DNA of 63,906 bases, filler included, from Dugesia japonica (lineage: Eukaryota), in the NCBI GenBank assembly GCA_001938525.1. It is 6 parts of 6 records of this genome, joined end to end, with 100 filler letters (N's around TTAATTAATTAA, not from the genome) between each part and the next. Parts side by side here need not be neighbours in the genome. Positions count along the whole stretch, not along the records: positions 43,922 to 55,437 come from MQRL01640716.1; 5 more parts are not named here. One strand, given 5' to 3'. Positions 16,415 through 63,906 of this stretch are shown here, one piece after another. Position 1 is the first letter of the stretch; each line of letters begins with the position of its first letter. The notes under the pieces are model-generated. The model searched no databases. It had not been told where the DNA came from and saw nothing but the letters and a program-made list of their open reading frames with translations. Position numbers and translations under genes: made by a program.

Positions 16415-18763
16415 ACTTTTTTAAACTATGAACAGAGTATATATACTAAAGATCCGCATAATGCAATCGACGATGTAACAGTTTCAATAAAATTNNNNNN
16501 NNNNNNNNNNNNNNNNNNNNNNNNNNNNNNNNNNNNNNNNNNNNNNACTTAACCATTTATCGTATTTAAGATTTCATTAAATTAAAAGCTTCGATCAAAT
16601 TGATGTTTTTTTTAATATTTTTTATCCTTGAAGAAGAACATGGTAGAAAATTCGAAATACCAACAACTAAAACATAAAAAACAATATTTTCATCGAAGCT
16701 TTTAATTTAATAAATATAGACACTCAATAAAGATTTAAAAAACCTGTTAGAACAATAATTTTTGGATCATATGATCGAATAATCAATGCTTCACACATGA
16801 TTCACTTTCAATAATCTCTAAACTTTCTGCATAAAATTTTGATATTATTAATTTTGATCACTGATATACACTGAATATTATGTTCTGCAATATTATTGTG
16901 TCTATTTTAACGATATTGTCTCGGAATTATTTTACAGAGATGACTGGAAGTCTCTCAAATGTATGCGGCATTACATCCATTACACTTATATTTATAAAAT
17001 AGATAAGAAACCAACCCATAAGGAATCTTAGACTTATTAATGAACGCATTAGGAAAATTTACTGAATATTTAAGTAAACTATTTTAAAATATNTAAAACC
17101 CTAATTGATTAAATTAATATATAATAAAACTAATTAAGTAAGATTAAAAAAATAAATATTATTCCTTGTTTCTCCGAAACTAAGCCCTAACCCAAAACCA
17201 AGCTCTAGACCAGGAGTAGAACTGCCAAATTTTTATAGGAACCAATAATAATATAAAAGAACACTTCCTCCCCTCCAACTCTTGCCAAAAGATACCAAGT
17301 GGTGCTAATATTTATATATGTTTTCGTGAAAGAAAATAATTTTTCCTTTAGTGGTTGAAAAATCTTTTGAATCGGATCGATAAATTTTTGTTCTGATTCG
17401 ATCAAATTTGAAATCTATGTACGCAGAATGTATAGCTTCATATTTCGGTGCTATTTTATTTAGCGAATATTCACGAACAACATTTAGCCCTCTACTGCAC
17501 TCTTGCTTAACTGATTTTCATTTTTTCAAATTTAAATCGTTGCTACCGAGGTGGGACCAAAAACTTAGTGCGGAAAGTGCTTCGTTCTCGATATAAACGG
17601 AAGTAGTGCATGTCACTACCTGATGAGTTATCGCGCATTTGCGAAATAATTGTTCCAGTAATTGAATGACATAGATTACTATGATATTTTTTAAGTCGGG
17701 AAAATAAATATTCAAATCAAGAATTTGAAAAAACTTTTTTTGAAATCGCTATACAGGGAAATATTTCCATTACAGTCATCAAATTTTTGCTACCACTGGA
17801 TGGAGAATTAAAAACTATCCATACATTATTTAAAGGACCTAAAGGATTTGTTTTGTTTTAAATGTCGTAATTTTAAATTTTCTATTTTTATCATATTTTT
17901 ACTATTTTATTGTTTTAATTAACTCGTTTAATATACACTTTATGTAAAAAGAATTAGTAATTCTGATCTAATATATTCAACTAAGGTATCATTGAATAGG
18001 TAATGGGATTACGGAGTTTTCTGTGATATTTAGAAAAAATCGATAAATGAATATTAAAATCGATAATTATCAAAAACTTGTACAGAGAAATTTCTCGTTA
18101 CAACTATGAATTTTTTTATACTAATGGATAGAGAATCAAAAACTGTCGATACATTGTCTTAAGAACAAGTATTGATTTATTTTGTTTTAATGAAGTCATT
18201 TTTAAAATAAAATAGGTGCACTATATAGGTGTCTTAGGCAATAAAATTTACATATTTCTATAAAATTTTTGTATATTTTTAAGAAAATAGTAGATTTTTT
18301 TTATAACTTTATGAACTCAGTACATATTAAAACTTATGTATTGAGATTATTGTATATTTTAATGAAATTACTTTGAAGTTAGAGTATATTTATTGACGTT
18401 TTATGTAAATATATTAAAAGTCTGTGTCTTAAAGAAAATTGTACACGAATTAAAAAATTATTTTGAATTAGTCTTAATGTATAAATGTTCAAATTTAATG
18501 TATATTTGATGAAATTGTATGTTTTGGATATGTTGATGGACTTTATGTATATTTGTTAATGAAATTGATATTTACAAAAATAGCATATACATTTTATTGA
18601 ATTAAGTTGCTTGCAGTCAGACTTCAGAATCAAAATAGTGTATATTACTTATAAATTTATGCATATTTCTCAATAAATTATTGTATATTTTATTGAGATT
18701 GATATATTTAATGACGTTTAAATAAAATTTGGTTGCGTGAAATCATTTATGGAACTTACTTAA

Positions 18764-37700: not shown

Positions 37701-40700
37701 GTTTTAAATGGATCTTCTACTTTTTCTAGTTTTCCTGATTTGATAGAATGCTTTATCTTAATGTCGTAACAATTATTCATTATTATCACATTTGTTAAAA
37801 CATCTTTGTTTTATTTTCTACCTTTCCATCTATCATTTACTTATAAATACTCACATTTTCTCCATTCCTTCGATAATTTAGAGCTTTCTACAAATCTGTA
37901 GGCATTGATGATTCCCTAAAAAAAGCCGTTTGGAATCTTTCTTCAAATTCCAATGCTTCGTCTTCATTTTCATAAATTTCCCGTAGTTATTTATCTTTGA
38001 AAGCAACTTCAAACAAACTTCTATGACCTTTCTTTATTCCGTATAGATAAAAATATTTGGCTGTTTTCAGAATAAATTTTCCGACATCAGCGTTCATTCT
38101 AAAAGCTCCAGGATGAATTGCTTCTTTTAGCAAATTCAATGATGCGATGGTAACCTTATTAGTAAAAGTAAGAATATCAAAATTATCCTTAATTATTATT
38201 CAATGATGTAAGCAAAGACTACCATATTTAAGCAAATAATCCATATCTGAGAATATTAAATTTATATTTAATATACGATATTTTCTAATAATAAACATTT
38301 CAATAATCCTTCAAAATTATTCTATGAAATTATACACTTCCAAAAGGTTTTCAAAAAATAGTAACATATTTTTTGTTTTACAATTGCTATTGCGAGAATA
38401 ATTGTTGGAAGTGACCATTGATCGTTTTTTAGAATTCATTTAAAATAAAAGCTTCGATCAAAAATTTTTTTTAATGTTTTTTTTGAGATTAATTCGATAT
38501 TTCGACTTTGTCTTCGTCAGGAATTGACTTTTTAAAAAGTCAATTCCTGACGAAGACAAAGTCGAAATATCAAATCAATTTAAAAAAGACAAAAAAAAAT
38601 TTTTGATCGAAGCTTTTATTTAAAATGAATATATTTTTTACTAAAAAATAATTCAAAACAAATTTAATATAATACAATATACAATACATTTAACAGTTAT
38701 TTAAATTAAATTACATTTCAAAAACTTTCGAAAAAAATGTAAACTATTTCAAAAATCTCTCATATACTTTTATTCTATAAAATATTGTAAATTATTTTAA
38801 CAATATTTCCATAAATAATTTTAATATAATGCAATATAATTTGTACCAAATTATTTGAATTAAATTAAAAATTTTCCCAGATATGTATAATCTATGAATT
38901 ATTCTTACAATATTAATATAAAAATAGATAGGTATTCTTAAAAGATGCTATTGAAATTTTGGAATATTAAAAATTCCGCCATTGATTTTCTAATATTATC
39001 AATAAATCATAAATAAATTTATAATAAATCAATAAAATAATTATAATTATATATTAATTTAATTATTTATTAATATTTCTATTTTTGGAATTTCTAAATG
39101 AAAATAAATTATAAAATATATTTAAATATTGTATTAATTTAAATATTTATTTTAAATATTTATATATTTTTCAAAATTAGGAAATTTTCAAATTCAAAAC
39201 CGTTTTCATTAATCTGCTAATTCTTTGGTTCATATTCTTATCATGTTCATTCAATTGTTATTCATTCGTTCTTGGATCTTCCAAAATTACTAATGAACTT
39301 TTAATTGCCACAGCAATCAATGCCAGTGCTTCATTTATTTGTCGATCTACTTACATGATCCTTTGTCAAAGAATCGGCCGAATCAGTATTTTGTTATCAT
39401 TACAATTAGGAGTTGCATTTTTATTTATCGGCAGTATGATTTTTAAATAGTAAGTTTAATTAATTATAGAATTAATTTTTTTTTAAAATAAATACAAACA
39501 ATTTTTAATTAAGATATTAACTTTTAAACTTATTTTTTAATTTTTAAATTTCTCTTTTAAATTCTTTAATTATTAATTTTAAAAATTAAACACAGGAAAA
39601 AATTTAAAAACATTCATTAAATTTTTATCTATTATATTTCACGCGTCATCATTCATTAGAACTGGAAATTCGATTAATTTAAATTTTGTCAGCAATATCA
39701 TTATTAGTACAAGGTGATACAAAAGTAGATATAAAGTAATCATTACTGTTATAAATATTGAAATTGTTTATAATTTTCATCAATAAAATTTGTTTATGTT
39801 TAAATATTACAAATTTTTAATTTTGTCCAATTGAATATTTTAGTTTTAATGTATTTTAGATGATCATTGCTGGTAATTAAAATATTAACTAACAGTATTA
39901 AACGATAATAAACGCTAGAATGGTTACAGATGAATGAGGGGAAGCTATTAAAACATTTAAGTATGTTCAAAAACTTTAGAAAATATGTGGAGAAAAAGTT
40001 TTAAAAGTAAATAAAAAATGTTATTAGAAAAAAGTATTCCGTTTTTTTATTGCATTGTTCAAGTCTCAAAAATTATCGAGAATAAAAGTTTGCAATCATT
40101 TCCAACGTTTGGTGTTGATGATTTAATATAAATTATAATAAATATTGTTTGAAATCCGATTATGTAATCGGCGCTGCAACCAGGTCACGGCTTAAAGAAG
40201 GACATTCAGATAATTTTTAAATGGATTTGGGTAAGGAAATTTACAACTCTTAAGTCAAAAATATAAAATTAAATCATTATATTGTATTTTTATAGTACAA
40301 AGCTGCACCTATAAAAAGATTTAGTTGCACATTAAGTGATAGTTTGAAAAAGTACTTTGTGCAAACCGCTAATAAAACCGAGATAAATGTGTTACCGAAA
40401 CGTATTCATATTTATAATCATTCATATTACAGGAGTTTAAATGGAGCAAGACTATCTTAGATATAGGTTCAAACATACAATTCAAGTTATAGCTATCACG
40501 TTAACAACAAAATTAATTAAGAAACCAAAATATAAAGTTNGAAATCATGTTTAAATCTCAAAAACAAATGCATCTACATTTATCAAGAATTTTGATAGCA
40601 ATTAGAGCGATGAGGGGTTTCAAAAAAATCAATAATTAGTATTTATTTGATTAGAAATGATGAGAATAATTTGGTTCAAAGAAAGTTTTATAAGCAGAAA

Positions 40701-43418
40701 TTTTACGAAATTTTGCCGCCAAACGTCTTAGAATAAAAAAATTATAAAATCTAAAGAAAGCTGTAAGAATAGATAATACTATGTAAAGAGGCATAAATAT
40801 CAAAATCCCATTCTAATATGAGAACTACAGTTAGTTAATCAACAAAATTATGAATAACTCAAATTATGCCTACAGTATTACTTATTAATAGCTGTACTCT
40901 TATTCATCCAAATAATAATTTTAGTATAATCAGTGTTAAGTGGAAAAAATCTGATTTACTTGTATGGACAATGGTAAGTAGCCATGATAAATTTGATCTT
41001 CGTATATTATACCTACTAAATATGAGATACGGAAAAATGAATGACATCATAAAACTATTAGAATTAATAATAAAGATAAAAATAACAGTGTTGGAGTAGT
41101 TGATAATTATTTCTAAATATTATTCTTATGAGATCATATTGGAAAGAATCGACTACACGCTAAAATGTGGATACAGTTTAGTGTCTAACCAGATATCATA
41201 CTATAATGAAATTTACAGAGCTGTTTATGAAACATTTAAGAAAAATTATTCAACTGAAAGAATTAAAATTAAAATATGATATTGCATGGTAATGATTTTA
41301 TTTTGGCTCATGACACACTTAGCCGATCTGAACATTTTTGCGGCACACTTTACACACTCCGGCCTACAATAAAACTATTTTTAGCTTCTCTTCATTTTCA
41401 TTAATTTTTTTCATTCTCGAAAATTCAAAATTTGATATACTTTAAATTTTAAGACAAAATATCTATAATTTTTTCTTTTTGGATTTAAACTTTTTAATGA
41501 GAAGACAAAGTCTGCTTTCAAAAAGCAAATAAGGTTGAAACGAGACTCCAATATTGACATCGAAGAAGCTGGTCTCTCCTTTTGTATTTGATTATAGTCA
41601 GAGCTAAAAATAAAATAGGTAAAACCACAAAGACGTAAAATGTAAACGAATTTTAACTGCTTTTGAACTAATCAAAGGATATGACGGTTTAAGAGAGAGG
41701 CAAAACTCGTCAGAAAAACCAATTGATGGAAGTTGTTGTTCATTAAGTCAAAAGGTTGTTCTTTTTCCATGGTTATAAGATTTGCTGTTACACGCATATA
41801 AATTGGACTGATGTTGAAATGCTGCTTGGAAACCTATTTCTGAGATAACAACAACAATGTTTTATTTGACTATAATTCATTAATCGAAGAAAAGCAGTCA
41901 AAATCACGCTTCAATATTTTGTTATCCCACGGTATCAGATTTTTACAAGTTTTGATGTTGATGAGATAATAATTTTCAATTATCCTCGAAGACTTAAATT
42001 CACAGAATTCAGTTTGTCAAAAGAATTGGAAAGATTGAACTTTCATATCTCGTCATACAGAGAAAATTTGCAATCTACTTCATTGACCTCCCAAAACGAA
42101 ATAACTTCAATTTTTAGGTTAACAAGACACTTTAAAACTTTTTCTTTCGAGAACCAACAAACGTTGGTATGATAAAGCATATATTTATGGTCTTAATCGA
42201 TGACATTTCAAGGTTGAGAGAAAAGTCGAGATTCGGGTAGTCGAGACTTACAAATAACTCAATATCCAGCAATTCCAAAATATATGCCATAAACATGTTT
42301 TTATCCGTTATCCAGGGTTGGTCTTTATTCTGACTCTGAAATTTTTCAAAGGTTTTGACTAATCAAAATCGATTATACATAAATAAAGAAAGAAAGTTTT
42401 TACCCCAGAAGCAAAGAGTCAGTCTTTGTTTACGTGCATCACTATCTACCTACTGGCATGTTTCAATATTATAAGTTTGCCTGTTAATACAATGTATGTT
42501 ACCATTTTTTGTTATTTTTTATTTATATATAAATAAAACTTCTGTCTTTAATACAGGCCTGTATTGTTTTCATTATATATATATTTTTGGTAAAAATAAT
42601 ATTGAAATCTAAGAGATAAATAGAGATTTCGTTTTTAAAGTGATTCATTTGTTTTAATCGTTTCAATATTTATGAATAATATTTGTTGTTAAATAATTAG
42701 TTATTTAGTTTTTTTGTTATTTCTTCTGAGAAACATAATTGACAATACATAAATATTCAACCGAGTTATTCGAATAATAAATTTATCGATTATACCTAGC
42801 TTCATTTATTTTTTAGTTTTGAAAATAATAATAGATAAAACAAACCATTAATTTGTAGTAATATGTACATGGATTGTTAGGATACAAAATGTAGATTAAT
42901 ATATATAAACTGACCAAACTGACTGGAATATAATGTTGCGAAATTCTTTGTAAACTAAACAAATTTAAACAAAGTTTTATTTTGTAAAGTTTTGATTCTT
43001 AATAAATAATTTAAATTTCAGTTTCTACGGTGTAAAAAATTTGTTTACAACAATTTTTTTAATGATTGCAATATCTATGTCTTCTACAAATATTGGATTT
43101 ATGTGGATTTATGGAGGAGAAGCATTTCCAACAGTAATTAGATCCACTAGTGTTAGTATTGGATCAGCATGTGCCGGGATTTCTGGAATAATTGCTACTC
43201 AGATGGAATGGGTATTTGAAATTGCACCGAATGTCCTACCAATGATCGGAATGGCGATGGCTCTAACAGGATCAGCTTTAACATTTTTCTTTTTACCGGA
43301 AACATTTAAACGTCTGAGTCTCGACTTTTTACCACAAGCTGAAAAATATTTTAAAGAATGGCGCCAACCTTGGAGAAAGCACACGAAAGTTATTATTGAT
43401 ATGGAATGTAATACTTAG
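34787..43418 (+). CDS. MFS transporter, SLC22/organic cation transporter-like, 3' part (3 exons visible)
   Basis: Exons <34787-35308 (FSDKFGR motif A, EIVE...R; N gap inside), 39181-39449 (EIFKFK...QRIGRI) and 43022-43418 (YGGEAFPTVIRS, LPET). Phases 0 and 2 are consistent; introns are ~3.9 and ~3.6 kb. The 5' end is lost at the scaffold edge. Confidence 0.85.
37488..38200 (-). mobile_element. LTR-retrotransposon gag fragment
   Basis: CX2CX4HX4C knuckle C*NCNKIGHICRYC at ~37490-37535; gag-like helical region upstream with frameshifts. Confidence 0.6.
38491..38525 (-). ncRNA. Minimal type I hammerhead ribozyme motif (family A), intact core
   Basis: AAUUC-CUGACGAA-GAC(AAA)GUC-GAAA-UA-UC-GAAUU: 5-bp stem I, 3-bp stem II, palindromic AUAU stem III, predicted AUC cleavage triplet. 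Confidence 0.8.
38542..38576 (+). ncRNA. Hammerhead motif (family A), degenerate 3' strand of stem I
   Basis: AAUUC-CUGACGAA-GACAAAGUC-GAAAUAUC-AAAUC; mirror copy of the previous motif. Confidence 0.65.
41490..42200 (-). mobile_element. Decayed hAT (Buster/Charlie-type) transposase fragment in the SLC22 intron
   Basis: MLYHTNVCWFSKEKVL (cf. LLYHTEVRWLSRGKVL) and FDKLNSVNLSLRG (cf. FxKLNxLNLSLQG). Confidence 0.75.
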
Positions 43419-45606: not shown

Positions 45607-48600
45607 TTAATTCCCGTCCATTTTCCGTTTTAAATATTTCACCTTAGACGATTTAGACTTCGCATTTTCATGTTCAGTCTTGCATTGTGAACAATAACTG
45701 GGCGTCAATCTTGACATACCATCAGCATTGGAATGATATTCCCCTTTCCTATACTTTAGTTTGAAATCATATTCTGATAATTCGTTCATTTTAAATCTGA
45801 AACTATGGCATAATTGGTTTTTTCGAATTCTTTATAAACTCTAAAGCTTTGTGATCGGTTCTTGCGACAAAACGTTTCCCATAAAGATAATACCAAAAAT
45901 GTCGAATAAATAAAAGAGCCAATAACTCCTTCCTGGTCACGCAATATCCTTTTTCAAGTGCGTTCAATAACCTTGATTTATATGTTATAACGACTTTCAT
46001 ACCGTTGTGTGATTGGCTCAGTACATCACCAATTCCCGAAAAACTGGCATCAGTATCTAGAATGAATTGACCTTCTGAACTAGGATACCCCAATACTAAA
46101 GAGTAACGAAGGGCTTCCTTGCTTTTCTCAAAAGTCGTCTCTCGTTTCTTTGTCCAGATGATCTCGTGCTTTGGATCTTCGGTAGCAGCATGTAAAGGTG
46201 TAGCAAGTTGCGAAAAATTCTTTATAAATTTTCTATAATAGTTTGCCATTCCATGAAAAGATCGCAACTGTTTAGTACATTTTGGAATTCCAGCATTAAG
46301 AATCTCCTTGACTTTTTGATTTTAATCCAAATTTGTTTATTGTATGACCCAAAAACACAATCTTTTCTTGATACAGTTTACATTTGGCTGGATTTACTTT
46401 AAGACCAGATACTTGAATTTTTTGAAATATTTCTGCTAGAATACGATCATGTTCCTTCCAAATTTTTGCAAAGGTTAGAATATCATCGATATAAACTACA
46501 ACACTCATAAATAGAATATCCGTCAAAATTGTTAGCATAAATTTTTGAAACGTAGCAGGAGCGGATGATAGGCCGAATGGCATGCGATTATAACACTATA
46601 ATCGATTATAACTGGCCTTTCTTTGTAAAACAAAGAGGTTTTAATTTTATCCTCCTCTTCTAGTTCGATTTGATAATGCTCTTGGCTGATATCTAGTGCT
46701 GAAAATATGATACATTTGAGGATCTGGCATAGGAAACAAAAATCTATCAGTTGCTTCATTCAATAATCTGAAATCCTGACACATGAGAATAGCTCCATTT
46801 GTTTTGCTAACAATCATCATAGGTGCGTTCCACGGGATACTGCATTCTTTTATAATGCCGCTTTTGATAAGTGTTTCAATTATCTCATCAATAATGTTTT
46901 CTAGATGCTTCGGCTGTCATCTTGGCTGTAGTAAAACAGGATTTCTTGTTGTTTGGATAGGATGTTTAACTAAGTGTGTTTTAACATGATCAAACGTATG
47001 CGTGATGAATATCGAGGCGAAACGCATTTACAATTTTTTCAAGATNNNNNNNNNNNNNNNNNNNNNNNNNNNNNNNNNNNNNAAATGATCCTCATCAGAA
47101 ACATTACACATTACATTATCTGACTCGATTAATCCAATCATCTTTAATTGGATATTAAAAACTTTGAACATGTCCATTCCGCTAATGAACTATGGGCTTA
47201 TACTCTGTACAACCACCAAATTGACAGTTGCGTTCATATTAAGGTACCCAATTTTCACATTTCCGACGCCCAAGCATTTAACGGCTTCTTTCGAAAATGC
47301 TCCACTAAATTTTATCTGTGAATTTTTCAATGGGAACGAAACACATCTTTTCCAAGCATTAGATTACTGAAATCTATGCTTATGAGTCTCACAACATCTA
47401 CACACCTCTACCATTCACTTTAACTAAGCTTTAAATTCTTCTATCGCTCTTCTCATACATCTCGTCATCTACGTTTAAATTTCGATTTTGATTTTTTCTT
47501 ACTGTCTTGACTCCACAGACGAAATTGGAACAGTGAAGTTTTCTCGTTTAAGTAGTTTACATCATGTGCTACTTCATCTGATTCATCGCAAATTACATCT
47601 ATTACATCTTTTTATTAGTTTTATCCACAATACATTTAAAAATTGTTTTTGTGGTGATATTTCCCAAGCAGTCTACAATTTTTAAACTTATGTCCCGATA
47701 TTTTACAAATTAAACAACAATCTTTTAGAGGACAATTATTACGAAAATGTCACATTGAAACACAAAAAAAACACATCCCTGGTCTCAAAATCCCTTCTCT
47801 TGGAGGTAGAAAACCTTTTAATTGATTATACAACTTTCTGGCAATGAACTTCATGGATGTCGTCGGCGAGTTTCTCTGGATTTGCTATTGGTATAAAATT
47901 TCAGAATTTTTTTTCTGGATAATTAACAACAGGAGCTAGCCTTTATGCAACTGACCTATCTGGAATTCGAATGTAGCTCTGAACATTACTTTTTCCTGTA
48001 TTTATCCTCTTTAACATCGGACGGTAATTAGCTGCTGCCACTTCAGAATATGATAATTTATTGACTGATAACTTTCTCTCAATGTCATCGTTTTTTCATA
48101 ATTTGCAGCTAGCTGTCGCATACCATCAGCATTCAAATCTGGTTTCAGGACAAATGCTTTTTTTAAATCTTGATATTTTACTATTTTATGAATTACTTGT
48201 TTCATAATTATTTCCATTGATAATCCGGATTTTAATATTTCTTTCAGAGTTCTTGTAACTCGAAATTTGACATTTTCATATCTTTCACCAGTCTTTTGAC
48301 TGATTATATTAAAATCTTCAATCATCCGTAAAAAAGATTTATCTTTGAAGAACTTTAACTTGAACCAATCTCTTGTTGATTTGTCTTCTATTTTGGTTCG
48401 TGATTTATTAGCTAACCATAAATCCTTAGCGTCGCCATCTAATAAAAAATAAAAAGTTGACATGAGGTTAAAGTTATTAGTGGCTGAGAACGTTCCAACT
48501 CCTTTCAACCAGGCAATTGTATTTTCATCACAATTTCCTGAGAATTTTGTTATTCTTGGAAATAACAGTTCTCGCGATTCTTTTTGTAAAGCTCCATAAA

Positions 48601-48640
48601 TTCTTTTTGCTTCTGCTGCCTGTTATTGAATTGACATGGT
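45607..48640 (-). mobile_element. Decayed Ty3/gypsy LTR retrotransposon (gag, RT, RNase H; no integrase seen)
   Basis: gag ORF 48011-48508 and knuckle CLICKISGHKFKNC at ~47670-47720; RT MPFGLSSAPATFQ and VYIDDIL; RNase H FILDTDAS, YCVTRKELLA, RTDHKAL and HSNADGMSR. Confidence 0.92.
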
Positions 48641-50820: not shown

Positions 50821-51312
50821 AGATAGATAATCCCGAGATGCATCCTTTTTTTGTTAGCGTTTTTAAATTTTTCAAAAAATTTTTTAAATGAAAATAATAA
50901 ANNNNNAAGGTATTATTTTCTAAGTAAAAATTAAAAAATTCTCATTTTTTAATTTTTATAAATAGCGCATTTTCTATGAAAATATCGGAAAATTAGAAAT
51001 CGCGCAAAAAACAAGAAATGTAAAAAATTAGAAATCGCACAAAAAACAAGAAATTGCAAAAGTGTCATTTTCTACAAAAACAAGAAATGCAAAAAAAAAC
51101 CGAGAATGTAAATTCGACCATGAGAAATTTCAAAATCGTAAATTTTTTGAAATTGAGAGTAGAAAAAATTTCCTCTTTAAGAGGATACCCTCTCACAAAA
51201 AATAAAAAAATATGAGTATAGAGATAACTGCCATTCTTAAGCACCACTACTATAAAAAAAATTACACAGTGCGATAGAAAAAATAAATCATAAATTTTTC
51301 CTTTAGAAAATA

Positions 51313-52739
51313 ATGGGAAGAATAGGACCAGGTTTAGAATTAACTTTAATAGCATTTAATAAAATAGTAGGTAAAGAACTGCCTACTTTAGAAGAAATTA
51401 AAGATTATAAAAGAAATTAATCACTAGTGCAGATAGTGGATGAAAATTTAGAAGATTATAATTTTTTAAAAAAAAATTTGAAACATTAGATTTAAATGAA
51501 ACAGAAAAGAAACACTATGGAAAATTATTAGAATATTTTACTGCGTTAGCAACAGATGCAGAGTGCAATGGAGAGTTATACTTTCAAGCTGAGGATGAAA
51601 AATATGAGATAAAAAAAATTACCAAAAGGAACGAGATGAGCACAATGCGGCATTAAAAAAATTAAATGAAGAATTAAAACCCAAAATGGTTTGTTATAAA
51701 CAGTTTGGTTTAGATACAGATCCAAGAATTAGAAAATTTAGAAAACCAATAGAGTGTGTAAAAAAAATTAAGATTTAACTCTATAGAAAATGGAAGAAGA
51801 AAATGAAATCGGGATAGATGTAATTTATAATATAATTGAATATTTAAATGATAATAAAATATATGATAAAAAGATTAAAGAATATTTAAAAAATAAATTA
51901 ACAAAAGATGTAGAAGAAAACTTAATTAGCCTTAATCAATAAAATAAAATGGTAGAAGAAAATAAAATAAAAGAAAAAGACAGGGAGATGTATAAATTTA
52001 TACTATCTTTTTTTATTTATCAAAACATAGAAAATGAGTGTATGGATTTGTTACTTAATTCTAAAAAAACGAAACAAACAATAAAACCAAGAATAATTAC
52101 TTATAAAGACTTGTGTTTTACATTTTCATTAAAAGAAGGTAGAAAACGACTTTCAGAAAAAGAGATTATAAAATTTTAGGATAACTTAGAAGGGAAAGAA
52201 AAAACTACAGAAAAATCTAAACGAGTGAAAGTTCCCCCATCATGTACAAGTATAGCTAGAGCAACAGCTAAAAAAATTATTATAAAAAATGCCTGATTCT
52301 ATTTTACTCACAATGATGAAAAATTATAATTTTAAAAAAAATTCAATAAAAGATTTTTGTAAAATTAATTAATTTAATGAAAAAACAATAAAAACATATA
52401 TAATTAAATTTAACATTCCTTACAATAAAATAACAACAAAAACTTTAATGGAAAGAGATAATAATGGGAGATTTATTTCGCTAGAAGATGGGGTTGGGAA
52501 AAAAACACCATAGTAAAAAAAATAATGGAAATGATAATGGTAGGGACAACCGTAAAGACAATAGTAGGGCCAACTGTTATAGTGATGCTAATTGTAATGG
52601 TAACTGTAATGGTAATTGTAATGGTAATTGTGATGGTGATTGTGATGGCGATGGAAAAAGAAAAAGTAAAAGAAGATGTCAAAAACCATCTGATATGATA
52701 AATTATAAAAAAATACACACCATTAAAAAATTACTATAG
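51313..52739 (+). pseudogene. Cluster of small Polinton accessory ORFs of unknown function
   Basis: Consecutive ATG-started A-rich ORFs at 51313, 51790, 51949 and 52448/52488 with internal stops or frameshifts; the last contains a TAATGG/TAATTG-type hexamer repeat. Confidence 0.5.
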
Positions 52740-52742
52740 AAA

Positions 52743-54036
52743 ATGGAGCTGAAAATAAATCTCGATAATAATATTATTTTTACTCACGAATTATTAAAAA
52801 AATGACATTTTAAAATTTTCACCAACATCGGGTTCAATAAATAATATGATGGGTGGAGGAGATGTTTTTTTCCAATCTTTGCAATCCACAAATCCATTAG
52901 ATATTTGCAACGCAATGTTATATTTTAAAATTGAAACAGAAATTGAAGCTGGTAAAACTGTAACTCTAGAAAATAATTTTTTTCCATCTTTATTTAAAAC
53001 AATGAGATTAAGACTTGGAGCATCAGATGTAGAAACTATAAATGATCCTGGCACAATAACAACAATGTTAAATTTAATTTTAACAAGTTATATTCATAGA
53101 AAAGTATATGGAGAATTATCAGGATGGGTTTTAGAAGAAGACCGAAGAAAAAAATTATATGCAATTAAAAAATTTGAAGTATATTTTCCATTAAGAATTT
53201 TATTTGGATTTATACAAAATTTTAACAGAGTTCTTTACAATACAATGATTAAATGTTGTTGTAATCGACAACTAGAAGATAAATTAATATTTAAAGGAGA
53301 TGGTACCGGAAAATTAAAATTACTAGCATTAGAATTACACATTCCAGAATGTCGACTTACACCAAAAATGGAATTATTATTATTAGAAAGAATTTCTACA
53401 GACCGCCCAATTAAAGTTGCATTTCTAAATCGAATAACTGGTAAAATGACATTAGACTCATGAAATTATTCTTCTTATAAAATTAGCAATCTTTCATACA
53501 AACCAAGATATATTTTTATAGTTATAAAAAATGAAGTTATTTCTTTTGCAAATAATAATAATTAATTTATACAAAAGAAAACAAAAACTACAAAAGTGAC
53601 AGTACCAGCAGTACCACCAGCAACTGTTGATACAACAAAAGATAAGCCCACCGATTATTATTTAAAAACTATGCAAATACAATTAAATAATAATTACTAT
53701 CCAATTAACGAATGTAAATTTAATATGGAAAATAATGAAATGATTTATCCTTATTTGAATTATATAAAATGTTGTCAAGATTTTTTTACAGAACCACAAT
53801 TAACACTTTTAGAATTTATTAATGATTATCCTATTTTCTGTTTTGATGTTACAGCAAAAGATGATAGATTAAATATTAAAAATGTTGATGTAACACTTTA
53901 CATTACAAAAGATCCAGAATTTACAGGAAATCTTTATTGGTGCATTCTTAAAGAAAAACATATAGAAATGAAATTAGCAAATAATAAAATTGCAATGGTA
54001 GAAAATGTTTGTGGTGTTGAATTTTTAAATAAGTAA
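52743..54036 (+). pseudogene. Polinton/adintovirus major capsid protein (double jelly-roll), disrupted
   Basis: One ~430-codon frame after allowing a +1 shift in the A7 run at 52796-52802 and in-frame stops at 53461 and ~53563. Motifs PLRILFGF, KPRYIFIV, QLNNNYYP and YPIFCFDV are typical of Polinton MCPs. Confidence 0.8.
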
Positions 54037-54037
54037 A

Positions 54038-54559
54038 ATGGTCAAGTCAATAAAATTTACATGTGAAAAATGTCATAGAATTTTATTAAAAAAAAATAAA
54101 GCTCGTCATGTAAAACTTTGTAAAGGTGGTGGTGATCTTCAAAAATCGAGTTTTATTAGTAATGTTTTAAAACCATTTACTTGGGAAAAATATGAAGGCG
54201 AACGACATTTACCCGGACATAATTATACTGGACCAGGAACTAGATTAGATATTAGACTTGATGAAAATAATATTCCGAAAGAAGGAGAAGAACCAGTTAA
54301 TCGAATTGATGCAGCAGCATTGAAACATGACATTGCTTATTATTCAGAAGACATGAGAGATCGACACGTAGCAGATGTACATTTAATAGAAGATATTAAT
54401 AATATGGAAGATCCTACTTTGGGAGAAAAATTTCAAGGCTTTCTTGTAAAATTAGCAATGAAGGCAAAATTATTAATTGGTCAGGGAGCGAGCGAAGCAA
54501 GCCACGGAGGGACTATAAGTAAATCAAAACAAATAAAAAAAATTAGAAACGAGCTATGA
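54038..54559 (+). CDS. Zn-finger + parvovirus VP1u-type phospholipase A2 domain (PLA2X)
   Basis: CEKCHRILLKKNKARHVKLC (C2HC finger); LPGHNYTGPG calcium loop; PVNRIDAAALKHDIAY catalytic HDxxY. Confidence 0.9.
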   Translation: MVKSIKFTCEKCHRILLKKNKARHVKLCKGGGDLQKSSFISNVLKPFTWEKYEGERHLPGHNYTGPGTRLDIRLDENNIPKEGEEPVNRIDAAALKHDIAYYSEDMRDRHVADVHLIEDINNMEDPTLGEKFQGFLVKLAMKAKLLIGQGASEASHGGTISKSKQIKKIRNEL

Positions 54560-55327
54560 GAATGAAATACCCTATGAAGAAACGGTGGCAAATGAATTAC
54601 ATCATGAATATAAAAAACCAAAACAATTTTTAAAAGTGCAAGTAAGCGCTCCTGATGAAATTTGGTCTGCAGATTTAACATTTCATAATAAGAGAGTAAT
54701 ATTAACTGTGATTGATCTTTATACAAGATTTGCTTTTGTTGAACTTTGTCAAAATAAAACCGGTCTATAGGTTACTAAAGCATTTGAAAGAATTCTAGAA
54801 AATAATATTTACACTCCAAATAATTTATGGGTTGATCATTCATCATTTACTACTTTTTGTGAAGAAAATAATATTAACCAATATTCTACTCATAATGAAG
54901 GAAAGGCAGTTGTCATTGAAAGATTTAATAGAAAATTTAAAAACAAACTTTTTAAGCATTTTACTGCTGTTGGGAATCAACAAATTACAGATGGTCTTTT
55001 ACAAAAAATTTTAGATAACTATAATAACACAATTCACTCATCAATCAACACAACTCCAAAAGAAGCATACAAAACTGGAGAAACAAAAGAAGAAGTTCAA
55101 AATGAAATATATAAAAAACCTAAGTTAAAAATAGGAGATCGCGTGCGAGTATTTCTTACTAAAAAAATATTTTAGGAAAAGCATATAGATTTAAATGAAC
55201 AGTTAAAATTTATACAGTGACAAAAAGATATTTAACAATTCCACCAACATATCAAATCACAGATTTTAATGGGAAAAAAATTCTTGGAAGATTTTATGAG
55301 AATGAGTTACAAAAAACTTCTCTGTAA
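54543..55327 (+). pseudogene. Polinton retroviral-type (rve/DDE) integrase, disrupted
   Basis: ANELH, EIWSADL, LTVIDLYTRFA, LWVD, VIERFNR, YNNTIHSSI.TTP, KIGDRVR and GRFYENELQK. Stop at 54768, apparent deletion after LWVD, frameshift near 55175. Confidence 0.9.
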
Positions 55328-55332
55328 AAAGG

Positions 55333-55437
55333 ATGAGTAATTTTGTTTGGAAAAAAGACAAAGTAATTTTTAAAAATAAAATTTTTCCTAGTAATTTTAG
55401 ATTGTTGATAATTGGATCTTCTGGTTGTGGAAAAAAT
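55333..55437 (+). CDS. Polinton packaging ATPase (FtsK/A32-like), N-terminal fragment
   Basis: MSNFVWKK...FPSNFRLLIIGSSGCGK Walker A; starts 5 nt after the integrase stop; truncated by the spacer. Confidence 0.8.
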
Positions 55438-55537: not shown

Positions 55538-55604
55538 TGTAACATGTTGATAATAAAAATGATTTTGAAATGTCAAAAATGATTTCAACGAGGAGGTTAA
55601 ATCT

Positions 55605-56260
55605 TTGAGCAGATGGAGTTTCAATACATCTATACCATATCAAATGCCGAACCTGTTTGATTCGGTGGAAGAATATGGAACACAGAGAGAACCATGGTGG
55701 CAATATGAGGACCTCATCAGGCTTAGAGACTTGGAAATTGTAGGGTTACGAAGCAAAATCGAAGGATTAAAACGAGAGTTAGAACAGAATGAAACATGTG
55801 AAGTCTTATTAAATCAAAATCAAAACTTGATGAATCAAGCACTCGCCAATCTCATAGAAAGGTTATCAGATCATCTCAGACGGCCACCAAAGATATACGA
55901 ACAAGGAACGGTATCCAAGTTAAACTTTTTGGCTCATAATAAAGTAGCAGAACGTTTGGTCTACAAAAAAACAGTAGAACTAGAGTAAAAAGATTGAGGA
56001 AAGAGCTAAAAGACTCGAAAGAGAATACAACAGTCAAACGGAAATTGTCGAGGCTATGTGAAAGATTAAGTTTAAGCCGCAGGCGCGAGTTGACGTTGAT
56101 CAATAACAATAGAATGTTAGCCAATATTATTAAGAGCTACGTGGACCGAGAAGTCTCGGTGCTCGCCAATATCAAAACTCTCTGGAGTGAGTATGACGGA
56201 CAGAAGATTACAGAAACAGATTTTGTTATCATCGAAGAGATCATCTTTGGGTCACCGTGA
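55605..56260 (+). CDS. Intronless coiled-coil ORF pair, probably one frameshifted ORF of mobile or viral origin
   Basis: Two abutting ORFs (127 and 88 aa) with heptad-like Leu spacing and higher GC than the flanks; no recognised domain. Confidence 0.4.
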
Positions 56261-57870: not shown

Positions 57871-58971
57871 TTATTTGGCTTTTCTTTTTTTTGATTGTTT
57901 CTTACTTAATTTGATATGAGAGTTCTGTGGATTTTCCATAACCTTTTAAAAATTTGTAATTATATTTAATTAAATTAATTACGTTATACATTTTTAATAT
58001 TTTTTCTATTGATTTTTTCCAAGAATTCTGTAGCTTTTCGTTTTCTATTTGCTTGCAAATTCGAATTATCAGTACAATTTACAGGTTGTTGTTGTTGACA
58101 ATAAACTACCATAAAATAATGATAACTAATCAATGATTGCACTGTTACTCACAATTTTGGCGGCCGATTTCTTCAGCATTAATTAAACATGAAATATAAT
58201 CAGTAACTGTAACCAATTTCTGTTCAACAGGACTTGCAATTATACGGCTTTTATGACTTTCAACAGTTAGTTTCGGTGCTGACTGAATATTTCCAGAAGG
58301 AACCTTTTTAATGAAATCTTCCCATTTTGGATAATGATTAACAATTGGCATCTTAACATTCTGTTGGGTATCTACTAATTTATTTAAACATCAATTAAAC
58401 AAAACCAAATCATAAATTAAAAGAATTTTTTATTTGTATTTTTATAATTTCAAATTTAAAAACACACTATTTGATTTTTTGGCTCGGGATAGACAATGCT
58501 GATAAAAACTATGATTTTGATTATCGGGATCAAGAAATTTCAGTTTATCACTTTTACTCATGATTGCATATTCAAATTCACTGCCGTGCTTCATTATATA
58601 ATCTACAAATTTGATTGTAATGCAAAGTTGCTTTCTCCTTTCAATATTTTCTTGCTTCAATCTAGAAATCGATTTACATGTTTTCTTCACTAATCAACCA
58701 TAATACTTTTCAATTCTTGCACTTTCTTCTTGGTCTTTTTGATATTGTTCAACGCCTGCTTTGGCAGCATAAGCTGCGGCATTTATCGCCAAAGATTTAG
58801 AATCTTCTTGGATTTGAAGTTGATTTGATTCTTGAAGCATTGGAGTATTGTTGTGTACTTGGTAGTAATAATTGTAATAATATGTATAATATTTTTCATA
58901 AAGGCTTTTGTATAATTTTTCTTTCGTGTCTTCTATTTCATCTGGAGAAGTGACATCGAATTCCTTGTTAT
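57871..58971 (-). CDS. SFSWAP: SFSWAP (suppressor of white-apricot)-like SURP splicing factor, last five exons
   Basis: Exons 58971-58707, 58661-58468, 58371-58153, 58105-57990, 57942-57871 (introns 45, 96, 47, 47 nt; phases consistent). SURP domain IKFVDYIMKHGSEFE...KFLDPDNQNHSFY; LQANRKRKATEFL recalls SFSWAP LQAERKRKAALFL; ends in basic KKQSKKRKAK*. Confidence 0.72.
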
Positions 58972-59419: not shown

Positions 59420-60279
59420 ATATAGATAATGTGTTACAATTAATATATAATCATTTCCATGTATAATAAACTCAAAATTTATAAAGCAACATAGTCTATA
59501 AAAACATGAAAAATAATCTGAAACAATTTTAATTTGTCATAATCGATAAATGTAATAAGACACAAATTTTAGTTGGAATATTCGTTCAAATATTCAAAGA
59601 CAAGTGATAGGTTATATGTAAAAATTAATTTGTTATTCAACCAATTCCAGCTCAAAATATTTGATTTTTTAATAAAGTTCCAACAATATATTAATTTAAT
59701 AAAACTATATCACAATTGCAGTCAAAAGTGTTTTTGTTCGTCTTTTTATGCGATTTTTTTTTGAGCAGTATATAAAAAAATCGGATAAAAAAGAGCGCAC
59801 TAAAACAGGTTTAACTGCAGAATATCTCACAAATTTTGGAAAAATCGAAATTCACATTTAATATTAATAACAAAATATAATCCGTTTATTTTATAAGCGA
59901 ATAAAAGTTTTCAAATTCTTAATATTAATGTCAACTTTTGAGACGATTTATTAGGTTGTTACACCGTATAAATGATTAATTTAAATCGTTATTTTTGTAA
60001 TTTTAGGCAATTTCAAAATTTTATTAAAATTATAAATGAAACAGAAAACTAATGAAACATTTATATAATATCAAATGATTAATAAAGTTTTTATTTAACT
60101 CAAGATAAAATTTCTATGATCTCCATTAGTTGCACGTATGATATTCAAACCATACGAAATTTCTGTAAATGGTCTTATTATTTTGACTTCATAACTACAG
60201 CGTTAGTTATCCTTTGTTTCAGGTTAACTATATTCTTTAACTTGGTCTGAAACACAGCAGTTTCACGTAACCGCACAAG

Positions 60280-61645
60280 AAAACTTCATTGGAGTTACAT
60301 CGGAGGAACAAGGTGGCCACAAAATATGGCCATCTCTTCCTATCCAGCGATCATGAAAAATTAAAAAAAAAAGTGACGAATATTTTTCCCATTTGAAGTG
60401 GTGCGCCATCTTGCTGAAAGATACTATTAGGATGTAGCTCTTCCAATTGTACATTCATATTTAATTACCTTTGAAAAACTTTTTAAAATTAAAAAAATTA
60501 TTTTATATCCAAAAAATTATAATTAATTAAAAATTTTTTAATTTTTTGGATATAAAGTAATTTTTAAATTTTTTTGAAATTTTAATTTATTTTCAAAATT
60601 TTTTATAGGTTTTGTATTTAATTATTATGTTTTGAAAAAAATTTCAATTTTCAAAATTTTTGAAAAATTTTAATATAATCTAAAATTAAAAATTTTTAAA
60701 TATTTTGGTAAAACAACTTTGATTTTATCGGTAACAGTAATAAAATATTATTATATAAATTAATTTTTTTTGAAAAATTGTTAAAAAATTTTAAAAATTG
60801 AGAATGTTTTTTTAAAACAAATTAAGAATTATAGCCGTCTTATATTCAGTATAATTAATCTTTGTTTGAATAAAACTTCATTAGAGTTACATCGGAGGAA
60901 CGAGGTGGGTACAAAATTGGGCCATCTCTTCCTATCCAGCGATCATGGAAAGTTTTATAAAAAAAGTCACGATTATTTTTCCCATTTGAAGTGGTGCGCC
61001 ATCTTGTTGAAAGATACTATTAGGATGTAGCTCTTCCAATTGTACATCCATATTAAATTACCTTTGAAAAACTTTTTAAAATTGAAAAAAAATTTACAAA
61101 TTACTTTATATCCAAAAATTTTTAATTAATTAAACTTTTTGGATATAAATTAATTTTTAAATTTTTTTGAAATCTTAATTTATTTTCAAAATTTTTTATA
61201 GGTTTTGTATTTTATTATTATTTTTTGAAAAAAATTTCAATTTTCAAAGGTTTTGAAAAATTTTAAAATAAAATAAAATTAAAAAATTTAAATATTTTGG
61301 TAAAACATCTTTGATTTTATAGGTAACAGTAATAAAATATTATTAAATAAATTAATTTATTTTGAAAAATTGTTAAAAAATTGAGAATTTTTTTAAAAAA
61401 ATAATTTAAATATTTATTATTTTTATTTTATTATTATTTTTTGAAAAAAATTTCAATTTTCATAGGTTTTGAAAAATTTTAATATAATCTAAAATTAAAA
61501 AATTTTAATATTTTGGTAAAACATCTTTGATTGTATAGGTAACAGTAATCAAATATTATTATATAAATTAATTTTTATTGAAAAATTGTTTAAAAATTAA
61601 GAATTATAGCCGTCTTATATTCAGTATAATCGCATTAATCTTTGG
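60280..61645 (-). mobile_element. Tandemly duplicated Tc1-like transposase fragment plus AT-rich arm
   Basis: Two copies (~60280-60865 and ~60873-61645) each encode FQQDGAP...RWIGRDG and one WPPCSSDVTPM (cf. WPPRSPDLTPLDF); the second has a further internal duplication. Confidence 0.8.
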
Positions 61646-63329: not shown

Positions 63330-63906
63330 ATAAATTTTCTACAAATGATTTGGAATATCCGTTTTTATTTAATAAAGACATCAAATTTTGAACATTTTTA
63401 CAAGACTTCGAATAGGAAGAAGAGAGAATATCTATATATTAATTCTTTAGTCATATTAAATTTATAACGAGATTGTAGAAAGATTATTTTATGAAACGAT
63501 TAAAAAATTGTTAATATTGTTAAAACTGTAATATTAATCCAAATGATGTTATTAAGGAAGGAGATAAATCTAATAACATTGATAAAATAAGTTGTTTAAA
63601 AATATTCCTTATTTTGAAGGCTTTAAGGATTTTAAAAATGGTTTGCTAAAATTTTCAGTAAATGTCCCAAATTTTAAAATTGTCTCCCGGTCTTTTAAAA
63701 TTATAAGTGCGTTCAGTAATAAGTCTAAGACTCCTTATGGGTTGGTTTCTAATCTTATTTATAAATATGAGTGTAATGGGTGTAATGCCAAATACATTGG
63801 AAAGAATTCCCGTCATCTCTATAAAATAATTCATGAACATAGTCGGTTAGGTAGTCCCAGTAATATTGCAGAACATAATATTCATTGTAAATCAATTATA
63901 AATATT
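63330..63906 (+). mobile_element. Penelope-like retroelement remnant with GIY-YIG endonuclease
   Basis: LVSNLIYKYECNGCNAKYIGKNSRHLYKIIHEH at ~63735-63840 (xIY-CxxC-YIG...EH); upstream RT-thumb region is decayed; runs off the window. Confidence 0.8.

What the first reader, a model, noticed from the sequence alone, without database searches (positions are those of the whole stretch)
54038..55327. Probable Zn-finger-PLA2-integrase fusion split by a single frameshift at an A8 run
Seen: the integrase frame has no ATG of its own. Removing one A from the run at 54535-54542 gives ...KQIKKLETSYENEIPYEETVANELH..., joining the C2HC finger and intact PLA2 (YTGPG, HDIAY) to the integrase. Inference: a polyprotein coupling endosomal-escape lipase to the integrase in the particle. 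The shift may be decay, a homopolymer error, or a programmed +1 shift making both a free PLA2 and the fusion. The MCP has a similar +1 in an A7 run, which favours error or decay. Similar fusions may already exist in other invertebrate Polintons.
Basis: partly seen in the sequence, partly recalled or inferred. Interest (0 to 1): 0.72.

Follow-up and report, generated by a model that had tools for sequence, protein, structure and literature searches.

The report
Decayed polintovirus lipase-integrase fusion gene
This is a broken copy of a real gene from a family of integrating DNA viruses of animals in which a membrane-breaking enzyme is fused to the integrase, probably as one precursor that the virus's own protease cuts apart; the frameshift seen here is decay, not a control switch.

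Summary
The fusion is real; 'single frameshift' and 'programmed shift' are not. 54038-55327 is a pseudogene copy of a Zn-finger/basic-PLA2-rve integrase gene in a high-copy Polinton/adintovirus-type element (MCP upstream, packaging ATPase downstream). It has four breaks (two frame changes, two stops) and two core deletions; the MCP has three breaks. Intact one-ORF fusions exist: 20 of 36 longer homologues carry both Pfam domains, 17 of 19 metagenomic loci spanning both domains join them in frame, the window integrase nests in an otherwise all-fused clade (SH-aLRT 99), and one paralogue contig from the same host has an in-frame junction. Intact linkers hold no long A run. Added here: the PLA2 is bracketed by GG/GxG motifs (46 of 50 and 26 of 32; background 3 of 717), which also fill the pX-like genes of the same elements, and close relatives encode an adenain-fold protease. 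I infer a protease-processed virion polyprotein. The architecture is already auto-named in a public atlas but I found no paper on it in ten searches.

The parts
52743..54036 (+). Major capsid protein (double jelly roll) pseudogene; frame change at A7 52796-52802, stops at 53461-63 and 53563-65
   Evidence: PF21738 on two pieces; tblastn 37-45% to MCPs of L004, L009, L034; stops
54038..54127 (+). N-terminal basic Zn finger (CxxC-x11-H-x3-C) followed by a GGG motif
   Evidence: translation; aligned to fingers of intact relatives
54128..54487 (+). Parvovirus-type PLA2 domain with Ca-loop YTGPG, HDIAY and downstream Asp; ends in a GxG motif
   Evidence: PF08398 1.1e-11; 74% identity to P0001 over 118 aa
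54488..54586 (+). Variable linker holding the frame change (between 54535 and 54556; A8 run 54535-54542)
   Evidence: 3-68 aa and in frame in 17 of 19 relatives
54587..55327 (+). rve integrase pseudogene (DDE residues present, SH3-like C-terminal part, no chromodomain); stop 54768-70, frame change near 55161-67, stop 55196-98, two core deletions
   Evidence: intact relative's model matches retroviral integrases
55333..55437 (+). Start of an A32/FtsK-type packaging ATPase (Walker A), cut by an assembly gap
   Evidence: tblastn to ATPases of L001, L003, L004; L004 ATPase is PF04665

Best explanation
Shown: the locus is a decayed genomic copy of a Polinton/adintovirus-type element whose intact relatives encode one 380-490 aa ORF, [Zn finger or basic leader]-PLA2-integrase. 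The frame change at the A8 run is one of at least seven coding breaks in the MCP and integrase and is not a conserved signal. Inferred mechanism of the intact gene: the fusion protein is made late and packaged with the genome through its basic/Zn-finger leader; during maturation the element's adenain-like cysteine protease cuts at the GG/GxG motifs on both sides of the PLA2, releasing a ~115 aa lipase for membrane penetration at entry and an integrase that travels with the incoming DNA. Free PLA2 would then need no frameshift. Odds: ancestral fusion about 0.93; A8 break is decay in the genome rather than a programmed site or an assembly error about 0.8; proteolytic release about 0.55.
For: Fusion: 20 of 36 longer homologues carry PF08398+PF00665; 17 of 19 loci spanning both domains are in one frame with no linker stop, L014 and L018 add two more in-frame junctions; window integrase sits in a clade of 22 rows, 21 fused plus the window, SH-aLRT 99, sister to P0001; a host paralogue contig in run X3 joins 54486 to 54603 with 31 other letters, net in frame and without a stop; five Lottia gene models run from PLA2 straight into the integrase's N-terminal ELH/EIH motif. 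Decay: four nonsense codons, and at each the covering paralogue contigs differ from the window in 98-100% of depth (53461: 1187/1187; 53564: 8529/8633; 54768: 926/941; 55198: 1370/1400; run X1); end branch 0.81 against 0.24 for P0001; A-run length varies among paralogues at 52796 and 54088; longest A run in the 17 in-frame linkers is 5. Cleavage: GG/GxG at the PLA2 C-flank in 46 of 50 and N-flank in 26 of 32 fused proteins against 3 of 717 integrase windows; both sites lie in or beside low-confidence segments of the P0001 model (32-52, 153-161); stand-alone PLA2s P0038, P0040, P0061, P0064 end at this motif; pX-like genes of L001, L003, L004 carry 7 such motifs each; L007 and L010, whose integrases are nearest to fused ones, have an adjacent ORF whose model best matches adenovirus proteinase with H, D, Q, C invariant. 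PLA2 Ca loop plus HDxxY kept in 36 of 46 fusions.
Against: Only 9 of 50 C-flank motifs fit the strict adenain P4 rule (M/I/L)xG (rule as quoted in 10.1101/341131), so a relaxed protease must be assumed. The same motif also ends non-fused PLA2s, so it may be a helix cap or inherited relic rather than a used site. No locus held shows PLA2, integrase and protease together on one contig (L007, L010 are cut just before the integrase); no protease, PolB, penton or TIR was found in the window. Searches were seeded with fusions, so the fused fraction is inflated. The A8 position was not among the 12 of 34 indel rows shown, so a homopolymer error in this assembly is not excluded for that one break; three of six A runs of 7 or more in 52743-55327 coincide with frame changes. 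A second host joint (54469 to 54592) is out of frame. No proteomic evidence that the integrase or PLA2 is in particles.
Confidence: 0.75

Rival explanations
1. The fusion works uncut: PLA2 and integrase stay on one chain, and the GG/GxG motifs are helix caps or flexible hinges, or relics of the PLA2X precursor.
For: 41 of 50 C-flank motifs miss the strict adenain P4 rule; the motif follows a long helix (H132-152) and is also present in non-fused PLA2s; some linkers are only 3-4 aa (L005, L006, L009).
Against: The motif is kept on both sides of the domain, recurs seven times in each pX-like gene and also lies in the linker of protease-integrase fusions P0126, P0164, P0167; pTM 0.44 gives no sign of a fixed PLA2-integrase interface.
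Confidence: 0.3
2. The A8 frame change is a homopolymer error of this assembly; the genomic copy is in frame there, although dead elsewhere.
For: All three frame changes in MCP and integrase fall at A runs of 7-8; the window is a gapped draft; no contig listed is shown to span the run.
Against: Four nonsense substitutions and two in-frame deletions show real decay; polymerase slippage also targets such runs; several other parts of the locus are matched with 0 differences by contigs of three studies.
Confidence: 0.15
3. A programmed frameshift at A8 yields both a free Zn-finger-PLA2 and a minor PLA2-integrase fusion.
For: L015 also changes frame at an A8 run in its linker and its integrase core is open over the part shown; stand-alone PLA2s exist in the family.
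Against: L015 shifts in the opposite direction; 17 of 19 loci are in frame with A runs of at most 5; the window integrase could not be made anyway (stop at 54768-70); a host paralogue is in frame.
Confidence: 0.03
4. PLA2 and integrase are two separate neighbouring genes, and the integrase has merely lost its start codon.
For: 125 of the 150 best representatives lack PLA2; P0038, P0040, P0039 (65-71% to the window PLA2) are short PLA2-only proteins, context unknown.
Against: No Met in the integrase frame; nearest relative and all 21 other rows of the clade are fused; frame-2 residues before the run align with linkers of fused relatives.
Confidence: 0.04

Closest known systems
Alpha (Mayetiola-class) adintovirus / group 2 Maverick-Polinton, PLA2X gene (Starrett et al. 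2021, PMC8502044; 10.64898/2026.06.19.733378)
   Same: Parvovirus VP1-type PLA2, rve integrase, double-jelly-roll MCP, FtsK/A32 ATPase; in relatives also PolB (L008), adenain-fold protease (L007, L010) and pX (L001, L004). L037 shows the described PLA2+pX form.
   Different: Here PLA2 is joined to the integrase and pX is a separate gene (L001, L003, L004). The integrase of this clade ends 13 aa after the GRFY-type motif and has no chromodomain.
Sf Maverick CAP protein (Geisler 2018, PMC5803895) and Polinton PLA2 (Yutin 2013 PMC3671162; 2015 PMC4642659)
   Same: PLA2 with catalytic and Ca-binding residues; proposed to be packaged and to aid entry (passages seen).
   Different: Described as a gene separate from INT.
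Parvovirus VP1u PLA2
   Same: Same Pfam family PF08398, YxGPG and HDxxY motifs.
   Different: Tethered to the capsid protein, not to an integrase.
Retroviral Gag-Pol / adenovirus core precursors (recalled)
   Same: Works like: enzyme delivered in the particle as a precursor and freed by the viral protease; adenain cuts at di-Gly-type sites (motif quoted in 10.1101/341131).
   Different: No Gag or RT; a lipase is the fusion partner; cleavage and packaging are inferred here, not shown.

Membership tests
Maverick/Polinton (adintovirus) | rve-type DDE integrase | tested here: met
   PF00665 weak on the broken window piece (0.0028), 6.5e-12 on P0001; DDE positions present; fold matches retroviral and MELD virus integrases
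Maverick/Polinton (adintovirus) | double-jelly-roll MCP | tested here: met
   PF21738; broken in this copy
Maverick/Polinton (adintovirus) | A32/FtsK packaging ATPase | tested here: met
   N-terminal 35 codons only, cut by a gap
Maverick/Polinton (adintovirus) | protein-primed PolB | tested here: inconclusive
   no hit in the window, element cut by gaps; present beside a clade-like integrase in L008
Maverick/Polinton (adintovirus) | adenain-like protease | tested here: inconclusive
   none in the window; present in L007, L010
Maverick/Polinton (adintovirus) | terminal inverted repeats and target-site duplication | tested here: inconclusive
   no bounding inverted pair among the 25 longest of 469 shown; element runs into an N gap
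Adintovirus as defined in 10.1101/2024.03.25.586562 | integrase with C-terminal chromodomain | tested here: not met
   window and the clade members checked end 13 aa after the last conserved motif; more distant fusions P0137, P0152 do have one
Alpha adintovirus PLA2X | pX domain at the C-terminus of PLA2 | tested here: not met
   integrase follows instead; pX separate in L001, L004
Alpha versus Beta adintovirus | PolB and hexon clade | not tested
   no reference sequences fetched; Alpha/group 2 is inferred from the PLA2 only
Parvovirus-type PLA2 (PF08398) | YxGxG Ca loop, HDxxY, downstream Asp | tested here: met
   activity not testable here
Programmed ribosomal frameshift site | shift site conserved in relatives, downstream frame intact | tested here: not met

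The most novel reading that the evidence does not exclude
A widespread lineage of animal-associated polintoviruses carries its integrase inside the particle as part of a protease-cut polyprotein with the entry lipase, and so integrates straight after entry as retroviruses do. Joining the integrase to a virion protein happened more than once: the PLA2 label needs 11 changes on the integrase tree (6 forced by strong branches), and three other integrases carry an N-terminal adenain-like protease instead.
Probability: 0.4. Interest if true: 0.7.

Novelty: new variant of a known kind. Interest (0 to 1): 0.45.

Why it matters
How and when Polintons/adintoviruses integrate is open: no animal Polinton particle proteome turned up in my searches. 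A natural PLA2-integrase fusion with candidate protease sites makes a sharp, cheap test (three purified proteins) of whether the integrase is a virion protein and what the Polinton protease cuts. It also changes gene-calling for these elements. The window copy itself is an ordinary pseudogene and the programmed-shift idea can be dropped.

Tried and rejected
No genome was held for the window, so host paralogues could be seen only through short contigs. Viral contigs gave no relative with P0001 or alignment A2; the phage collection gave no match. No RNA holder listed. RNA run X10, about a quarter read, laid 79 reads, 2 at 99% identity or more, 95% running on into unlike sequence: no sign that this copy is expressed, and weak either way. 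Pfam and phmmer against PDB did not recognise the L007/L010 protease; the atlas and the fold search did. The N-flank count was faulty (negative slices, redundant members) and was redone. A third joint (54254 to 54594) is in frame but removes most of the PLA2 and was not counted. The 14 long Lottia models look like chimeric gene predictions; only P0017 shows the integrase motif. No one-clade (AU) test was run, so several origins of the fusion are not shown. Earlier findings of the scan: none. Programmed shift and separate genes were considered and rejected as above.

Full report
Observation. The ORF at 54038-54559 has a CxxC-x11-H-x3-C finger and a PF08398 PLA2 domain with YTGPG and HDIAY. The integrase continues in another frame that has no Met codon. 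Stops in the two frames confine the frame change to about 54535-54556, which includes the A8 run. It is not the only break: the integrase has a stop at 54768-70, a second frame change near 55161-67, a stop at 55196-98 and two in-frame gaps of about 8 and 6 residues in the core. The MCP upstream (PF21738) has a frame change at 52796-52802 and stops at 53461-63 and 53563-65. A packaging ATPase starts at 55333 and runs into an N gap. No PolB, penton, protease or bounding inverted repeat was found in the window.

Is the fusion real? Yes. Of 36 longer homologues of the PLA2 ORF, 20 carry both PF08398 and PF00665, 2 list only PF00665, and 14 are Lottia gigantea gene models with PLA2 only. Of 49 metagenomic loci, 19 span both domains; 17 join them in one frame with no stop in a linker of 3-68 aa (4 of these have one stop elsewhere), and 2 change frame. 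L039 shifts inside the integrase and is broken several times; L015 shifts at an A8 run in the linker but in the opposite direction to the window. Most of the other 30 loci are cut by contig ends; L014 and L018 still show an in-frame PLA2 tail, and L037 is a stand-alone PLA2+pX gene. These searches were seeded with fusions, so the fractions are inflated. Among the 150 best representatives at 50% identity, 25 have a PLA2 match in front of the integrase (two of them only partial) and 125 do not. On an integrase tree of 148 rows (21 of 169 dropped for short coverage; quick IQ-TREE, SH-aLRT only) the window nests in a clade of 22 rows, 21 fused plus itself, support 99, sister to P0001 (88), with an end branch of 0.81 against 0.24. 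The window PLA2 is also nearest to P0001 (74%), followed by identity by short PLA2-only proteins at 65-71% and P0002 at 69%, so unfused forms are close by in the family.

The host's own copies. Contigs of three DNA runs from three studies cover all 30 bins of 51300-55430, with summed depth up to tens of thousands against about 12 for single contigs, so the family is abundant in this host (not a copy number). At all four nonsense codons the covering contigs differ from the window in 98-100% of depth: these stops are private to this copy. A-run length varies among copies at 52796 and 54088. The A8 position is not among the 12 of 34 indel rows shown, so an assembly error there is not excluded. 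One contig in X3 joins 54486 to 54603 with 31 other letters; the net length keeps PLA2 and integrase in one frame and the letters hold no stop in that frame (read by eye). Another joint, 54469 to 54592, is out of frame. The longest A run in the 17 in-frame linkers of relatives is 5. A programmed shift is therefore very unlikely.

How the intact gene most likely works. Shown: catalytic motifs of PLA2 are kept in 36 of 46 fusions and a finger in 13 of 29; the DDE residues are invariant in 15 aligned fusions; the P0001 model (pLDDT 70.5, pTM 0.44) matches retroviral and MELD-virus integrases. GG or GxG lies at the PLA2 C-flank in 46 of 50 and the N-flank in 26 of 32 non-redundant fusions, against 3 of 717 16-residue windows of the integrase part and 2 of 151 of the PLA2 helices (the N-flank window was 28 residues). 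Several stand-alone PLA2s end at this motif. The separate pX-like genes of L001, L003 and L004 have seven such motifs each. L007 and L010, whose ten best integrase matches are all fusions, carry an adjacent ORF with invariant H, D, Q, C, atlas neighbours in Peptidase_C5 (15-62% of members) and a model whose best match is adenovirus 2 proteinase (E 6.7e-5). Inferred: packaging through the basic leader, cutting at both motifs during maturation, PLA2 acting at entry by analogy with parvoviruses (as proposed for Polinton lipases in PMC4642659), and integrase arriving with the DNA. Against: only 9 of 50 C-flank sites fit the strict adenain rule quoted in 10.1101/341131; the motif may be a helix cap; no held contig shows all three parts together; nothing here shows the proteins in particles.

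Wider pattern. The fused label needs 11 changes on the tree (6 forced by starred branches; 8 and 5 against integrases with a clearly different long N-terminus). This allows several gains, losses or mis-called genes; no AU test was run. P0126, P0164 and P0167 carry an adenain-like protease in front of the integrase, with a Gly-rich or GxG linker.

What is known. Ten searches found no paper describing a PLA2-integrase fusion. I saw passages found by keyword, not whole texts, of PMC8502044 ('fused' and 'fusion' 0 hits; PLA2X is PLA2+pX; one supplement archive, cut when stored, shows PLA2X and Integrase as separate labels), PMC3671162, PMC5803895 (CAP and INT separate), PMC4642659, 10.1101/341131 (49), 10.64898/2026.06.19.733378 (phospholipase common in group 2), 10.1101/2024.03.25.586562 (integrase defined with a chromodomain), PMC11296320, 10.64898/2026.07.28.741253 (67) and PMC11131425. 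The library lacks most subscription papers and Repbase, and bioRxiv supplements were closed, so prior mention in a genome map is possible. The architecture is not unseen by machines: the ESM Atlas has clusters of 184, 111 and 72 members in which 78-99% carry PF08398 and 93-100% PF00665, one auto-named after both (scores 0.82-0.85, leads only).

Verdict. The window holds a multiply broken copy of a real PLA2-integrase fusion gene of a Polinton/adintovirus-type element. It works like an Alpha/group 2 element but fails two described features (PLA2 joined to pX; chromodomain on the integrase): a new variant of a known kind. Interest 0.45, resting on the testable polyprotein model and not on the frameshift.

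Noticed in passing
P0126, P0164, P0167: Integrases with an N-terminal adenain-like protease domain (H, D, Q, C kept) and a chromodomain; a second kind of virion-protein-integrase fusion, or read-through gene calls.
   Followed up: partly
L001:2378-2926, L003:2413-2922, L004:3503-4069: Stand-alone pX-like genes with seven GG/GxG motifs each, three or four of them in a repeated GxG-L-Y/F-L unit; look like multiply cut core precursors.
   Followed up: partly
P0152: DUF5679-PLA2-rve-chromodomain protein far from the window's clade; DUF5679 also leads stand-alone PLA2s (P0051, P0065), so the metal-binding leader is interchangeable.
   Followed up: no
window 52448-52739 +: Small basic Gly/Asn/Cys-repeat reading frame just before the MCP, probably also frame-broken; candidate core protein; no real Pfam match.
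   Followed up: partly
window 45607-48622 - and 40221-40620 +: Decayed Ty3/Gypsy-like retroelement (RVT_1, RT_RNaseH) and a separate rve integrase fragment.
   Followed up: no
window 42996-43418 + and 58445-58693 -: Probable host exons: sugar/MFS transporter piece and a SURP-module protein.
   Followed up: no
window 12733, 25975, 34686, 43822, 55438: Identical 100-base N gaps with a central TTAATTAATTAA: an artificial scaffold linker, so order across these gaps is unverified.
   Followed up: no
window 55569-56260 +: Two overlapping ORFs of 139 and 105 aa behind the gap, no family above cut-off; link to the element unknown.
   Followed up: partly
window 60277-61605; 16850-17048 with 63708-63906: A duplicated unit with about 590-base spacing, and an 83% inverted pair over a frame that resembles a GIY-YIG nuclease fragment (resemblance recalled, not tested).
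   Followed up: no
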